Shown: in pieces, positions 56,613-59,426 of the stretch
Numbering within the stretch: position 1 is the first letter of the stretch
Layout of the letters: each line of letters opens with the position of its first letter
Assembly (NCBI GenBank): GCA_003104935.1
Contig: PQAE01000003.1
Location: 9,350 to 73,349 of the forward strand
From: Parcubacteria group bacterium
GTDB lineage: Bacteria; Patescibacteriota; Patescibacteriia; UBA1558; GWA2-36-10
Length of the DNA: 64,000 nt
Direction of reading: 5' to 3'
Made by a program: the position numbers and the translations under genes
Notes under the pieces: model-generated
Databases searched by the model: none
Told to the model about the DNA's origin: nothing
The model's input: the letters and a program-made list of their open reading frames with translations, nothing else

Positions 56613-59426
56613 TTACAGATAAAGATTGAGGACCTCGTCTTTGACATTGAATATTCTTTGGCCAAAGAACAAGCGGAATAATTCACCCCAGGTGGAAATA
56701 TAGCGGCCCTTGCCATGTTCAATATGATAGATGTCGGGCAGACAGCCGCGCAGTAGCGAGCCGTCAGGAAACTTGGTCTTACCAAGAATATCTTTATCCC
56801 ACCACTGTTTGCCTTCGTGGCGCCAATCCAAGGTGCATTCTATCTGCTCTTGCGTTATTTTAGCACCCAAGACCTGAGGAGCGGGAGTACAGTTTGTTTT
56901 AGTGATAAAAGTCATCTCCGAGCTGGTAAAGACGCTATCGCCTACGCCCTGCATTTTGATCCGGTAATAATAAGTGGTGCCTGGTTGGAGGTTGGGCAAA
57001 GTTACAGAATGACCCGTTTTTTGCACTCCATCTTTGTATTCAAAATCATAATTGCCGCCGCTCTTTGTACCGTAGATTATCCAGGACACTGAGGCGTTGG
57101 TTGTGGTCCAGCTTATGCTAGCGTTAGTACATTGCGTACCGGCCTGAATATTATTGGCGCCGCTGATCTGGACTCCGCCACCGCCGCCACCGCCGCCAGA
57201 ACTAGAACCTCCGCCGCCGCCAGGATTATCTATAGTGCGGCAATTGGTGTTGCAAATCCTGGAGCCGTTAGGACCGGCATCGCATTCCTCGCGTCCGTTG
57301 ACTACATTGTCTCCGCAAAATTCATTGCTTTGGCAGATATTCCAACGGCAATAGAGTTCGTCACTGCCCTGAGACTGGACCGGAGGCATGTGGCAGGTCT
57401 TGGTACCGGCATAACCGGCTTCGGTAGTACAGGCCTGAGCCGGCGTATAATCACATTCCTCGCCCGCTTCTATCCGCTCATTGCCACAAACCGGCTGAGG
57501 AGGAATAATTATCATGCAAGTAGTGCTACAGACGCTGGAGCCATTGGGACCGGCATCGCATTCTTCGCGCCCGTTGACTGCATTGTCTCCGCAAAATTCT
57601 GTAGAAATACAACTATTCCAAGTGCAATATGGTTGCGGTTCGACTAAAGTCATAAGCGAATCGGTCAGCGCCATATGACAAGTCTTGGTGCCGGAATAAC
57701 CGGCCTCGGTAGTGCAGACTGTCGGCACATTGCCGTCACACTGTTCGCCCTGATCCACATGGCCGTCACCGCAATATGGTTGCGGCGCGCAATCCAGCTG
57801 AAAAGGAAATCTATCAAAACAAGCCTGTTCGGCGCTCTGTCCCTGACCCAGATACATCGCTACATAAGACAAGTCGGAGGCGTCGATATAGCCATCGCGA
57901 TTTAAATCATAAGTAGTCCAATACTTGGGAGTAGTAGAATTTGATCCCAAAGAATCGGCAATCCCCTGCTTCAAGCCGTTGCACCAGTCAATTTGCAAAT
58001 AGTTATCGCAATTGAATTGGTAATTAGGATTTTCAAATTGCTGGTGGCAGGAATTATTATCGTTAACACCTTTCCAGGCCGCCAGAGCGGCTAAATCAGA
58101 ACCATCAACAATATTATTATTATCTATATCAGGGACAGTATTGCCCGGAGCTTTCGGGCCCATCGCTTTCTCTATGATTCCCTGCAAAGCACTACACCAA
58201 GGTGAAACCGCCGGCTCCACTGGTTTTTGGCAACTAAGAGCTAAATCAGCAAAGGGCTGATAATGCTCGGCATAGCGGTCAAAACAATCTTGGCGGGCGT
58301 TTGTACCCAGATAAGCGGCTATAGCTGAAACGTCAGAGGCGTCAATAAAGCCGTCGCCCTGATGAGCCGGCCCGTTTATATCAAAGAAAGAAGAATAATT
58401 GGCGTCACCGGTTTTGGTGCCAAGGGAATCAGCAATGCCTTTTTTTAATCCGGCGCACCAATCAATACTCAAATAATTATCGCAGTTAAAACGCAAACCA
58501 TTGTCGTTAAATTGCTTTAGGCAGGTGGCGTCAGATTTATCGGCATACCACTTGGACATCTGGGAAAGATCAGAACTGTCTACACCGCCGGCGTTATCAA
58601 CGTTTGGTACCGGGGTCTCAGGCGTAGTGCCCAGAGCCGATTCTACGATGCCGTAGAGGGAACTGCACCAGGGCGACAAAGTAGTTTCTACCGGCACCGG
58701 ACAATTTAGCTCTAAGGGATACTGACTAAAACAGGCTTGACGGTTATCGCTCCCTAAATAAGCGGCCACGGCCGAAAAATCCGAAGCGTCAACCTTATTA
58801 TCGTGGTTTAAATCAAAGATAGCCGAATAACGGTTCTCGCCGGACTTTGAACCCAGAGAATCTATCACTCCCTGTTTTAAACCGGCACACCAATTAACTT
58901 GCAGATAATTTTGACAATTTACTTGCAAGCCGTCCTGCAGATCATAAAACTGTTGAAAACAATGGTCGTTTTTCCCCTCCTCATACCAATGCGTCATCTG
59001 TCCGTTGTCTTCCGAATTTACCTGACCGTTATTGTCCAGGTCGGGCACAGAAGTCTGGGCAATGGAACCCAGATGAAAATCCACTATGCCTTTAAGGGCA
59101 CTGCACCATTGGGAAAAATTCTGATCGTCGTCATTGTCGTTATCATCACCATCATGATCGTCATCACCATCATGATCATCGCTATCATCGGAGCACTTGC
59201 CTTCATAATCGCCGTGATCCAAATGAGCGGAAACGGAATTTTCATCAGTCTCAATGCCGTGATAACCGCCGTGCCCGGTGCGATGACAGATCTCAACATG
59301 TCTATTTTCCTCGTCAGCTTTGACGCTGGGCAAACCAGTAAAGTGAATAGCCAGTGCGCCCGTATTTAAGAAAAACAAAGACAGCGCCGCCAAGATAATA
59401 AAAATATGATTATATTTTTTTCTCAT
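56613..59426 (-). CDS. Giant secreted cysteine-rich repeat protein 1 (937 aa; putative adhesin)
   Basis: Signal peptide; His/Asp-rich tract (DDSDDHDGDDDHDGDDNDNDDD); four roughly 110-aa modules each with dockerin-like Ca loops (DLNHDNKVDASDFSAVAAYLG etc.) and four Cys; four Myxococcus-type Cys repeats (CGD..V..GE.CD); Gly linker; Fn3-like domain; shared C-terminal domain. Confidence 0.7.
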   Translation of the reverse strand: MRKKYNHIFIILAALSLFFLNTGALAIHFTGLPSVKADEENRHVEICHRTGHGGYHGIETDENSVSAHLDHGDYEGKCSDDSDDHDGDDDHDGDDNDNDDDQNFSQWCSALKGIVDFHLGSIAQTSVPDLDNNGQVNSEDNGQMTHWYEEGKNDHCFQQFYDLQDGLQVNCQNYLQVNWCAGLKQGVIDSLGSKSGENRYSAIFDLNHDNKVDASDFSAVAAYLGSDNRQACFSQYPLELNCPVPVETTLSPWCSSLYGIVESALGTTPETPVPNVDNAGGVDSSDLSQMSKWYADKSDATCLKQFNDNGLRFNCDNYLSIDWCAGLKKGIADSLGTKTGDANYSSFFDINGPAHQGDGFIDASDVSAIAAYLGTNARQDCFDRYAEHYQPFADLALSCQKPVEPAVSPWCSALQGIIEKAMGPKAPGNTVPDIDNNNIVDGSDLAALAAWKGVNDNNSCHQQFENPNYQFNCDNYLQIDWCNGLKQGIADSLGSNSTTPKYWTTYDLNRDGYIDASDLSYVAMYLGQGQSAEQACFDRFPFQLDCAPQPYCGDGHVDQGEQCDGNVPTVCTTEAGYSGTKTCHMALTDSLMTLVEPQPYCTWNSCISTEFCGDNAVNGREECDAGPNGSSVCSTTCMIIIPPQPVCGNERIEAGEECDYTPAQACTTEAGYAGTKTCHMPPVQSQGSDELYCRWNICQSNEFCGDNVVNGREECDAGPNGSRICNTNCRTIDNPGGGGGSSSGGGGGGGGVQISGANNIQAGTQCTNASISWTTTNASVSWIIYGTKSGGNYDFEYKDGVQKTGHSVTLPNLQPGTTYYYRIKMQGVGDSVFTSSEMTFITKTNCTPAPQVLGAKITQEQIECTLDWRHEGKQWWDKDILGKTKFPDGSLLRGCLPDIYHIEHGKGRYISTWGELFRLFFGQRIFNVKDEVLNLYL

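What the first reader, a model, noticed from the sequence alone, without database searches (positions are those of the whole stretch)
57900..59110. Apparently new roughly 110-aa module: four conserved Cys plus two dockerin-like Ca loops, repeated 4-5 times per protein
Each unit reads approximately W-C-[AS]-x-L-x-G-I-[VI]-[ED] ... VPD[IL]DNNG.VD.SD ... C..QF...FNC.NYL.IDWC.GLKQGI.DSLGS ... Y..FD[IL]N.D..IDASD.S.VA.Y[LM]G ... CF. Canonical dockerins are paired 22-aa EF-hand-like repeats without this Cys framework. Here single Ca-loop segments are embedded in a disulfide-rich scaffold, which suggests an extracellular, oxidising-environment Ca-dependent binding module.
Basis: seen in the sequence. 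Interest (0 to 1): 0.6.

Follow-up and report, generated by a model that had tools for sequence, protein, structure and literature searches.

The report
Disulfide-stapled double dockerin-like calcium module
Two neighbouring surface-protein genes of an uncultured Parcubacteria (CPR) bacterium each carry three copies of a rare ~140-residue module, made of two cysteine-stapled, one-calcium "half-dockerins", that no Pfam or NCBIfam family covers as a whole and whose binding partner is unknown.

Summary
The repeat is real but was mis-measured. The window holds six copies, not about 12. There are three in each of two adjacent minus-strand ORFs (56613-59426 and 59463-61433). Each copy is 137-149 aa with six invariant Cys. 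A seventh copy lies in the third paralogue, beyond the window end.

Across 64 copies from 47 proteins, four Cys are invariant. The other two are gained and lost together (p = 2e-14), which suggests a disulfide.

The module is an internal duplication (hhalign 99.1 %, E = 1e-18) of a ~60-aa unit. The unit is a W-C helix, a linker, a 12-residue dockerin-type Ca loop with Asp always at position 12, a second helix, then C-Y-x-x-F.

Pfam Dockerin_1 matches only about 40 residues, and no Pfam or NCBIfam family covers the whole module. AlphaFold2 gives pLDDT 94. Foldseek against PDB aligns only 39-40 residues, all to type II dockerins.

Carriers are signal-peptide-bearing multidomain proteins of Patescibacteria, plus one named Omnitrophota.

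Best reading: an extracellular, Ca-binding, disulfide-locked dockerin derivative used for docking or adhesion. The binding role, the partner and the Cys connectivity are inferred. It is a new variant of a known kind.

The parts
56613..59426 (-). ORF A, 937 aa. Order of parts: signal/anchor, ICH...HGD..G.C motif, acidic linker, 3 modules, 2 blocks of DUF4215/myxo Cys-rich repeats, FN3-like (Pur_ac_phosph_N) domain, conserved ~85-aa C-terminal domain.
59463..61433 (-). ORF B, 656 aa (= PWB39000.1, 'hypothetical protein', Parcubacteria group bacterium). Order of parts: signal/anchor, 3 modules, conserved C-terminal domain.
61649..64000 (-). ORF C, a third paralogue that runs off the window end. 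The full protein is P0011 = PWB39001.1, 1376 aa. Its single module (aa 83-227) lies beyond base 64000. The part inside the window has a beta-propeller (SGL/NHL), DUF4215 repeats, an FN3-like domain and the same C-terminal domain.
58701..59111 (-). Module A1 (ORF A aa 106-242). Cys at 108, 156, 171, 180, 232, 242.
58230..58673 (-). Module A2 (aa 252-399). Cys at 254, 302, 315, 324, 381, 399. Loop 2 carries a 5-residue insertion.
57789..58202 (-). Module A3 (aa 409-546). Cys at 411, 460, 473, 482, 536, 546. This copy was the sequence modelled with AlphaFold2.
60825..61241 (-). Module B1 (ORF B aa 65-203). Cys at 67, 116, 132, 141, 193, 203.
60312..60758 (-). Module B2 (aa 226-374). Cys at 228, 276, 290, 299, 356, 374. 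Loop 2 carries a 5-residue insertion.
59838..60284 (-). Module B3 (aa 384-532). Cys at 386, 435, 448, 457, 514, 532. Its 3' 272 nt are 99 % identical to the matching part of B2.
59007..59042 (-). A1 Ca loop 1, DLDNNGQVNSED
   Evidence: family conservation
58779..58814 (-). A1 Ca loop 2, DLNHDNKVDASD
58569..58604 (-). A2 Ca loop 1, NVDNAGGVDSSD
58332..58382 (-). A2 Ca loop 2, extended form, DINGPAHQGDGFIDASD
58095..58130 (-). A3 Ca loop 1, DIDNNNIVDGSD
57873..57908 (-). A3 Ca loop 2, DLNRDGYIDASD. This is the stretch that Pfam Dockerin_1 and the EF-hand models match.
61134..61169 (-). B1 Ca loop 1, DLNNSGIVDSSD
60903..60938 (-). B1 Ca loop 2, DLNDDGYIDASD
60654..60689 (-). B2 Ca loop 1, NLDNLGGVDASD
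60414..60464 (-). B2 Ca loop 2, extended form, DINGAGYQGDGFIDASD
60177..60212 (-). B3 Ca loop 1, DIDNNNIVDGSD
59940..59990 (-). B3 Ca loop 2, extended form, DINGAGYQGDGFIDASD
61284..61433 (-). ORF B N-terminal signal/anchor segment: a K/R/S-rich stretch, the hydrophobic FVIYFMILAMALW, then ...AQA/SE.
   Evidence: Read from the sequence. Hydropathy scan.
59316..59426 (-). ORF A N-terminal signal/anchor segment (MRKKYNHIFIILAALSLFFLNTGALA...).
   Evidence: Read from the sequence. The hydropathy scan covered the homologues and ORF B (as P0002), not ORF A itself.

Best explanation
The unit is a ~140-residue extracellular domain built by tandem duplication of a ~60-residue dockerin-derived element.

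Each half consists of:
- helix A, which starts with an invariant Trp-Cys;
- an 8-12-residue linker;
- a 12-residue dockerin-type Ca2+ loop (D-[IL]-N-x-D-G-x-[VI]-[ND]-L-[ST]-D, with Asp at position 12 in every copy);
- helix B;
- an invariant Cys in a C-[YF]-x-x-[FY] turn.

Each half therefore corresponds to 'helix 1, linker, repeat 2' of a dockerin and should bind one Ca2+.

I infer that the first and last Cys of each half form a disulfide that staples helix A to the end of helix B (C1-C2 and C4-C5). I also infer that an optional third disulfide (C3-C6) ties the inter-half connector to the C-terminal tail.

One to three such modules sit in secreted or membrane-anchored multidomain proteins of ultra-small bacteria (Patescibacteria, and one named Omnitrophota). 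These proteins also carry Ig-like, FN3-like, PA14, beta-propeller and Cys-rich repeat domains.

The most likely role is a Ca2+-dependent, redox-robust docking or adhesion element. It would hold these proteins to a partner on the cell's own envelope, on a sister surface protein or on a host cell, using the helix-B faces as dockerins do.

Shown: the repeat, the duplication, the loop conservation, the partial dockerin homology and the confident fold prediction. Inferred: Ca binding, disulfide connectivity and surface location. Speculative: the docking function and the partner.
For: The repeat and its rarity:
- Six copies with E = 1e-70 to 1e-73, and none elsewhere in the window.
- A profile search of 1.84 billion representatives gave 188 hits at E <= 1e-3. 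Among them are 61 full-length modules in 46 proteins. The remaining hits match only a loop plus helix, and those that were Pfam-scanned hit Dockerin_1.

Internal duplication:
- Half 1 against half 2 by hhalign: probability 99.1 %, E = 1.4e-18, 57 columns.
- The column profiles of the two halves are parallel.

Calcium loops:
- Position 12 is Asp in 59/59 copies in both loops.
- Position 1 is Asp in 54/59 (loop 1) and 58/59 (loop 2).
- Position 5 is D/N in 50/59 and 57/59.
- Position 8 is I/V in 49/59 and 57/59.

Dockerin relationship:
- Pfam Dockerin_1 scores above its gathering cut-off in 53/59 modules, but over residues ~80-120 only (profile positions 19-56 of 57).
- With the 59-sequence profile, all 11 PDB sequence hits at E <= 0.01 are cellulosomal dockerins.
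- Foldseek aligns 39-40 residues at 0.6-1.3 A rmsd to type II dockerins and to nothing else above noise.

Fold:
- AlphaFold2 with 59 sequences gives pLDDT 93.9 and pTM 0.89, with six helices.

Cysteines:
- C1, C2, C4 and C5 are invariant.
- C3 and C6 are both present in 38 copies and both absent in 23. There are 3 discordant copies, in which the extra Cys probably belongs to the next domain. Fisher p = 1.8e-14.
- Stand-alone single units carry only the two homologous Cys (P0062, P0101).

Location and context:
- 42/46 carrier proteins have an N-terminal hydrophobic signal or anchor segment.
- Co-occurring domains are adhesin-like: Bact_surface_Ig-like, fn3, SpaA, DUF11, TSP3_bac, DUF4215. L001's protein is named 'PA14 domain-containing'.
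- Named sources are Parcubacteria, Patescibacteria and Omnitrophota MAGs.
Against: - No cohesin-like partner was found. The ORFs of the window that were scanned show none, and about half of the window's ORFs were not scanned.
- Dockerin-like modules outside cellulosomes mostly have no demonstrated partner (general knowledge).
- Three of the six window copies have a 5-residue insertion inside loop 2, which may alter or abolish that Ca site.
- Many Patescibacteria are anaerobes. No Dsb- or VKOR-type oxidase turned up among the scanned ORFs, so oxidative folding is assumed rather than shown.
- The modules sit N-terminally or internally, whereas dockerins are usually terminal appendages of enzymes. 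No catalytic domain accompanies them in the proteins that were scanned.
Confidence: 0.6

Rival explanations
1. It is a passive structural element. The Ca2+-rigidified, disulfide-locked helical spacers would stiffen and extend the stalk of surface proteins, as TSP3 or cadherin-type Ca sites do, and would have no specific binding partner.
For: - One to three tandem copies lie between the signal peptide and the functional-looking domains.
- No partner was found.
- Copy number varies freely between close relatives: 1 in L001 and L006, against 3+3+1 here.
- Recent intragenic duplication is visible.
Against: - The sequence is strongly conserved beyond the metal ligands and Cys, for example the W-C-S-A-L-x-G and G-L-x-Q-G-x-x-D-S motifs. 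Whether these residues are surface-exposed was not determined.
- The closest relatives with known function, dockerins, are binders.
Confidence: 0.25
2. It is simply an ordinary dockerin or EF-hand pair already covered by existing families, and the Cys residues are incidental.
For: - Pfam Dockerin_1 scores above its gathering threshold in 53/59 copies, with weaker EF-hand hits.
- The loop consensus is canonical.
Against: - The Pfam match covers about 28 % of the module (residues ~80-120 of 142).
- The two loops start 74 residues apart, against about 32-35 in dockerins.
- Each loop has its own preceding W-C helix.
- Four Cys are invariant in 59/59 copies.
- No PDB chain aligns over more than 40 residues.
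- With the deeper profile no calmodulin or EF-hand protein remains at E <= 0.01.
Confidence: 0.07
3. The four invariant Cys form a Cys4 metal (Zn or Fe) site that clamps the two halves together, rather than two disulfides.
For: - Exactly four Cys are invariant, two per half, in symmetric positions.
- The host lineages are largely anaerobic (general knowledge).
Against: - The proteins carry signal or anchor segments.
- Single units with only two Cys exist on their own (P0062, P0101).
- The extra Cys behave as a pair.
- The neighbouring DUF4215/myxo_disulf repeats are disulfide-type modules.
Confidence: 0.08

Closest known systems
Dockerin modules of cellulosomes (Pfam PF00404 Dockerin_1; type I, e.g. 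2y3n_B and 1daq; type II X-Doc, e.g. 5k39_B and 2b59_B)
   Same: - The 12-residue Ca loop has Asp at position 12 and is followed by a helix (an 'F-hand').
- Each half superposes on dockerin helix 1, linker, repeat 2 over 39-40 residues at 0.6-1.3 A rmsd.
- All significant PDB sequence hits are dockerins.
- Both are extracellular.
   Different: - A dockerin is 60-70 aa with two loops about 33 residues apart, sharing one three-helix bundle, and it has no conserved Cys framework.
- This module is ~140 aa. Each loop has its own W-C helix, and the loops start 74 residues apart.
- It has 4 invariant plus 2 co-varying Cys, an inter-half connector and a C-terminal tail.
- No cohesin is known for it, and it is not attached to enzymes.
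EF-hand pair domains (calmodulin-like; PF13499, PF00036)
   Same: Helix, 12-residue DxNxDG loop, helix. Pfam gives weak hits (E = 1e-3 to 1e-7).
   Different: - Position 12 is always Asp, not the canonical bidentate Glu.
- Helix A is separated from the loop by an 8-12-residue linker.
- EF-hand proteins drop out of the PDB hit list when the 59-sequence profile is used.
- The module is extracellular and Cys-stapled.
Single Cys-stapled dockerin-like units in other Patescibacteria and metagenome proteins (e.g. P0084, P0093, P0095, P0126, P0129, P0139, P0101, P0062)
   Same: The same ~60-aa plan: Cys at the start of helix A, a G-S-x-x-G-D-x-x-Y linker, the Ca loop, helix B, then (W)C. Pfam sees only Dockerin_1.
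   Different: - They occur singly or as simple arrays, often with two further Cys (C-G-D ... P-C).
- They lack the fixed two-half arrangement, the connector and the W-C-S-A-L-x-G / C-Y-x-x-F signatures of the module described here.
- They match only profile positions ~75-135.
Thrombospondin type 3 / bacterial TSP3 repeats (PF18884) and DUF4215/myxo_disulf_rpt Cys-rich acidic repeats (TIGR02232)
   Same: Extracellular, Asp-rich, Ca-associated, disulfide-containing repeats. They occur in the same proteins.
   Different: They are short (20-40 aa), non-helical repeats. None of these models matches the module itself.

Membership tests
Dockerin (PF00404 Dockerin_1) | Sequence scores above the Pfam gathering threshold | tested here: met
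   ORF A 41.1 bits, ORF B 30.6 bits, module A3 alone 30.5 bits; cut-off 22.9. 53/59 family modules match at E <= 0.1. The match is partial: profile positions 19-56 on residues ~80-120.
Dockerin (PF00404 Dockerin_1) | Two 22-residue loop-helix segments separated by a short linker, forming one ~60-70-aa module | tested here: not met
   The loops start at residues 27 and 101 of the 142-aa module, 74 apart. Each is preceded by its own helix. The whole unit is 137-149 aa.
Dockerin (PF00404 Dockerin_1) | Ca-ligand pattern: D/N at loop positions 1, 3, 5, 9 and Asp at position 12 | tested here: met
   Position 12 is Asp in 59/59 in both loops. Position 1 is D in 54/59 and 58/59, position 3 is N/D in 53/59 and 56/59, position 5 is D/N in 50/59 and 57/59, position 9 is N/D in 53/59 and 56/59. 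Exception: loop 2 of A2, B2 and B3 has a 5-residue insertion.
Dockerin (PF00404 Dockerin_1) | Whole-domain structural superposition on a solved dockerin | tested here: not met
   Foldseek aligns only 36-40 columns, with query-normalised TM-score 0.25-0.28.
Dockerin (PF00404 Dockerin_1) | Ca-dependent binding to a cohesin module | not testable with these tools
   No cohesin hit in the scanned ORFs of the window. The rest of the genome was not available.
EF-hand (PF00036 / PF13499) | Score above the Pfam gathering threshold | tested here: inconclusive
   EF-hand_6 reaches 29.9 bits (cut-off 25) on ORF A, through one loop only. EF-hand_1, _5 and _7 fall below their cut-offs.
EF-hand (PF00036 / PF13499) | Glu at loop position 12, and helix E directly abutting the loop | tested here: not met
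   Position 12 is Asp in 59/59. Helix A ends 8-12 residues (sequence consensus) to ~20 residues (DSSP on the model) before the loop.
Any whole-module family in Pfam-A 2025 or NCBIfam 20 | A model covering most of the ~140 residues | tested here: not met
   None at E <= 1 on the three ORFs, and none at E <= 0.1 on the 59 isolated modules. NCBI names the proteins 'hypothetical protein'. InterPro and CDD were not queryable.
Bacterial TSP3 / DUF4215 Cys-rich acidic repeats | Match of the module to PF18884, PF13948 or TIGR02232 | tested here: not met
   These models hit other parts of the same proteins and not the module.

The most novel reading that the evidence does not exclude
The module is a previously undescribed fold class: a pseudo-two-fold 'double mini-dockerin', with each half holding one Ca2+ and one disulfide. 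It would be largely restricted to ultra-small, host-dependent bacteria (Patescibacteria and Omnitrophota) and would work without cohesins. Under this reading it is the element by which these episymbionts fasten their variable adhesin-like surface proteins to a host cell or to their own envelope. The rapid copy-number change and the circular permutation seen here would then reflect host-range adaptation.
Probability: 0.2. Interest if true: 0.7.

Novelty: new variant of a known kind. Interest (0 to 1): 0.45.

Why it matters
Patescibacteria and Omnitrophota make up a large share of uncultured bacterial diversity, and many members are thought to live attached to other cells. The molecules that mediate attachment are almost entirely unknown. 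In the one genetically tractable Saccharibacterium, a dockerin-domain envelope protein was among the essential genes (PMC10633639).

A well-defined, confidently foldable, family-specific docking-type module gives three things:
- an HMM to annotate a set of otherwise 'hypothetical' giant surface proteins;
- a small, expressible domain (~140 aa) for Ca-binding, disulfide-mapping and partner-fishing experiments;
- an instructive case of dockerin evolution, showing loss of one loop, Cys stapling, duplication and circular permutation.

It does not open a new mechanism class unless a novel partner is found.

Tried and rejected
Searches that led nowhere:
- The search for homologous proteins with the 6-copy profile found a single 228-aa fragment. 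With the 59-copy profile it found nothing, probably because the word index fails on this family. The index-free profile search was what revealed the family.
- The look-up of encoding contigs had no record for ORF B.
- The genome contigs and metagenome-contig scans added only two full relatives, L001 and L006, both on short contigs.
- BFVD (viral structures) gave only noise.
- Foldseek with the first, shallow model (pLDDT 75) gave nothing.
- Three literature searches found no description of such a module. The only relevant item was the mention of an essential dockerin-domain protein in a Saccharibacterium.

Readings rejected:
- EF-hand pair: position 12 is Asp, and EF-hand proteins leave the PDB hit list with the deeper profile.
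- TSP3 or DUF4215 repeat: these models hit elsewhere in the proteins.
- Chance or low-complexity repeat: E = 1e-70 per copy.
- Canonical dockerin: the spacing and the structural coverage fail.

Not achieved:
- Reading Cys-Cys distances from the model, because coordinates are not exposed.
- Scanning the other half of the window's ORFs (about 24925-42000).
- Identifying the C-terminal ~85-aa domain, which found nothing in PDB sequences.
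Full report
**What is at the coordinates**

The stretch 57900-59110 lies inside a 937-aa minus-strand ORF (A, 56613-59426). The next gene upstream on the same strand (B, 59463-61433, 656 aa) is a paralogue.

A motif scan and an HMM built from the copies find six units in the whole six-frame translation of the window. Three are in A (nt 58701-59111, 58230-58673, 57789-58202) and three are in B (60825-61241, 60312-60758, 59838-60284). Per-copy E-values are 1e-70 to 1e-73, and pairwise identity is 44-78 %. This is not chance.

- There are 3 copies per protein, not 4-5.
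- There are 6 copies in the window, not about 12.
- Each copy is 137-149 aa from W-C to the last Cys, not about 110.
- Six Cys are invariant in the window copies, not four.

The third gene (C, 61649 to beyond 64000) runs off the window. Its full product, recovered as P0011 (1376 aa), carries a seventh copy at aa 83-227, outside the window.

**Source organism and protein context**

ORF B is identical to PWB39000.1 and P0011 to PWB39001.1. Both are 'hypothetical protein' entries of a Parcubacteria group bacterium MAG on an 84-kb contig. The scanned parts of the window hold ordinary housekeeping genes: MreB/C, PBP2, glycosyltransferases, RRF, RecJ, Fpg, CorA and Dus.

A, B and C all begin with a basic plus hydrophobic signal or anchor segment. 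After the modules come DUF4215/myxo Cys-rich repeats, an FN3-like domain and a shared ~85-aa C-terminal domain. C also has an NHL/SGL beta-propeller.

**Known families**

Pfam-A at E <= 1 reports only Dockerin_1 (41 and 31 bits, cut-off 22.9) and weaker EF-hand models, each over the ~20-40 residues around one Ca loop. NCBIfam reports nothing on the modules.

When 59 isolated modules were scanned one by one, Dockerin_1 matched 53 of them, always over about residues 80-120 of 142 (profile positions 19-56 of 57). No other family recurs. InterPro and CDD could not be queried.

**The family**

The word-indexed protein search nearly failed. A full profile scan of 1.84 billion cluster representatives gave 188 hits at E <= 1e-3, 57 at E <= 1e-10 and 22 at E <= 1e-30.

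Re-scanning the retrieved sequences found 61 full-length modules in 46 proteins. Copy number per protein is 1 in 32 proteins, 2 in 13 and 3 in one. The remaining hits match only one loop plus helix, and those that were Pfam-scanned hit Dockerin_1.

All 20 clusters that were looked up have only one or two members. Where a name exists, the source is Parcubacteria, Patescibacteria or 'bacterium', plus one Omnitrophota protein, P0026.

42 of the 46 proteins have an N-terminal hydrophobic segment. The four exceptions include at least one clear fragment (P0028 does not start with Met) and likely truncated or mis-started ORFs. Co-occurring Pfam domains are surface or adhesin types: Bact_surface_Ig-like, fn3/Pur_ac_phosph_N, SpaA, DUF11, DUF642, TSP3_bac, MopE and DUF4215.

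Two relatives, L001 and L006, have a single-module protein immediately upstream of fpg, as in the window. In L001 an SdpI-like membrane-protein gene follows fpg, also as in the window. The window lineage has therefore expanded from 1 gene with 1 module to 3 genes with 3+3+1 modules. A 272-nt stretch is 99 % identical between B2 and B3, so expansion or gene conversion is recent.

**Anatomy**

In the 59-sequence alignment the invariant residues are C5, S6, G10, D38, C54, W75, C76, D85, D112 and C130 (numbering of module A3). Nearly invariant are W4, L8, D27, G78, G82, D101 and D105.

Column profiles show two parallel halves:
- W-C-x-x-L-x-G-[IV] (helix A);
- an 8-12-residue linker;
- D-[IL]-N-x-D-G-x-[VI]-[ND]-L-[ST]-D;
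- helix B;
- [GN]-[DN]-x-x-x-C-[YF]-x-x-[FY].

hhalign of half 1 against half 2 gives probability 99.1 %, E = 1.4e-18 over 57 columns. The module is therefore an internal duplication of a ~60-aa unit, joined by a 12-18-residue connector and followed by a short tail.

Both loops keep the ligand positions. Position 12 is Asp in 59/59 copies, which is the dockerin signature rather than the EF-hand Glu (established knowledge of the two families).

Loop 2 of A2, B2 and B3 carries a 5-residue insertion. Similar long loops occur in homologues.

**Cysteines**

C1, C2, C4 and C5 never vary. C3 lies in the connector and C6 in the tail. They are both present in 38 copies and both absent in 23. Three copies are discordant, and there the extra Cys probably belongs to the next domain. 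Fisher p = 1.8e-14. This is the behaviour expected of a disulfide pair.

For the four invariant Cys the connectivity is inferred. The halves are homologous. Isolated single units exist that carry only the two Cys homologous to C4 and C5 (P0062, and the repeated units of P0101). In a dockerin the start of helix 1 and the chain after helix 3 lie close together (general knowledge). All of this points to one staple per half: C1-C2 and C4-C5.

A looser set of single units has four Cys: C-helix, G-S-x-C-G-D-x-x-Y, loop, helix, W-C ... P-C. Examples are P0084, P0093, P0095, P0126, P0129 and P0139, and Pfam sees only Dockerin_1 in them. Cys-stapled dockerin-type repeats therefore recur among these hits; the one named source is Patescibacteria and the others are unnamed metagenome proteins.

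Six proteins (P0014, P0040, P0044, P0045, P0053, P0056) have the order loop 2 / helix B2 / C5, then a complete half 1, then helix A2. This is a circular permutation of the module, as expected from truncating a tandem pair.

**Structure**

With 7 sequences AlphaFold2 gave pLDDT 75. With 59 sequences it gave pLDDT 93.9 and pTM 0.89, with helices at 3-15, 36-47, 51-55, 75-85, 110-120 and 124-131.

Foldseek against PDB finds nothing at E <= 1e-3. The only non-random matches are 36-40-column superpositions at 0.6-1.3 A rmsd on C. thermocellum type II dockerins, with TM-score about 0.27 normalised to the query. The profile against PDB sequences returns 11 hits at E <= 0.01, all of them cellulosomal dockerins, and each covers one loop-helix only.

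**Interpretation**

The best-supported reading is an extracellular, Ca2+-binding, disulfide-locked derivative of the dockerin repeat, duplicated into a two-site module and used in surface proteins of ultra-small bacteria. By analogy with dockerins the likely function is docking or adhesion. However, no cohesin or other partner was seen, so that step is speculative.

The rivals are:
- a passive Ca-stiffened spacer, which is plausible;
- an ordinary dockerin or EF-hand pair, which the spacing and coverage tests reject;
- a Cys4 metal site, which is unlikely given the export signals, the two-Cys single units and the pairwise behaviour of C3 and C6.

**Verdict**

It is best classed as a new variant of a known kind (the dockerin / F-hand lineage), not as a categorically new scaffold. 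Interest is moderate.

Noticed in passing
window 56613-56880, 59463-59730 and 61649-61915 (3' ends of ORFs A, B, C, minus strand): All three paralogues end in a conserved ~85-aa domain: PQVLGxK ... FPDGTLLRGC.P.VY.IENG..R.I.S..EL...F.GQRI.NV....L.L[FY]. It has no Pfam hit at E <= 1 and no PDB sequence hit. Its core motif is present in the last 160 residues of 27/46 module-bearing homologues, and in several sequences it appears twice. It may be an envelope-anchoring domain.
   Followed up: partly
window 59193-59300 (ORF A aa 43-78, minus strand): A short motif, VEICH-x(25)-AHLDHGD-x-EGKC, follows the signal peptide. The same ICH...AHL.HGD..G.C element recurs near the N-terminus, or before the modules, in many homologues (P0004, P0006-P0008, P0010, P0012 and others). 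The only match is a weak DUF7199 hit (E = 0.015). It could be a metal-binding or processing motif.
   Followed up: no
window 59838-60109 vs 60312-60583: A 272-nt direct repeat is 99 % identical between modules B3 and B2, while the 5' parts of the same modules have diverged. This indicates very recent intragenic duplication or gene conversion.
   Followed up: partly
window 58332-58382, 60414-60464, 59940-59990: Loop 2 of modules A2, B2 and B3 has a 5-residue insertion between loop positions 4 and 5 (DING-PAHQG/AGYQG-DGFIDASD). Comparable long loops occur in several homologues. The effect on the Ca site is unknown.
   Followed up: no
homologues P0014, P0040, P0044, P0045, P0053, P0056: These are circularly permuted versions of the module: loop 2 / helix B2 / Cys, then a full half 1, then helix A2. 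They lie directly after the signal peptide and keep the four core Cys.
   Followed up: partly
homologue P0026 (HOW35200.1): A module-bearing protein is annotated from a Candidatus Omnitrophota MAG (1.6-Mb contig). Five proteins from unnamed sources (P0020, P0021, P0028, P0031, P0035) share with each other a distinct architecture: an FN3 domain, the module, and a TSP3-like (DTDGDG) C-terminal region. The module is thus not confined to Patescibacteria.
   Followed up: no
window 48117-50402, 50348-52429, 53059-54711 (minus strand): Three large ORFs (761, 693 and 550 aa) just downstream of the surface-protein cluster have no Pfam hit at E <= 1e-3. The 550-aa ORF has several N-terminal hydrophobic segments.
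   Followed up: no
window 55664-56566 and 54907-55602; L001 2987-4588; L006 1591-2493: The module-protein gene is followed by fpg/mutM in all three related loci. In the window and in L001 an SdpI/DUF1648 membrane-protein gene follows fpg. L006 shows only fpg within the ORFs listed, and its contig ends about 600 nt further on. The number of module genes varies between loci.
   Followed up: partly
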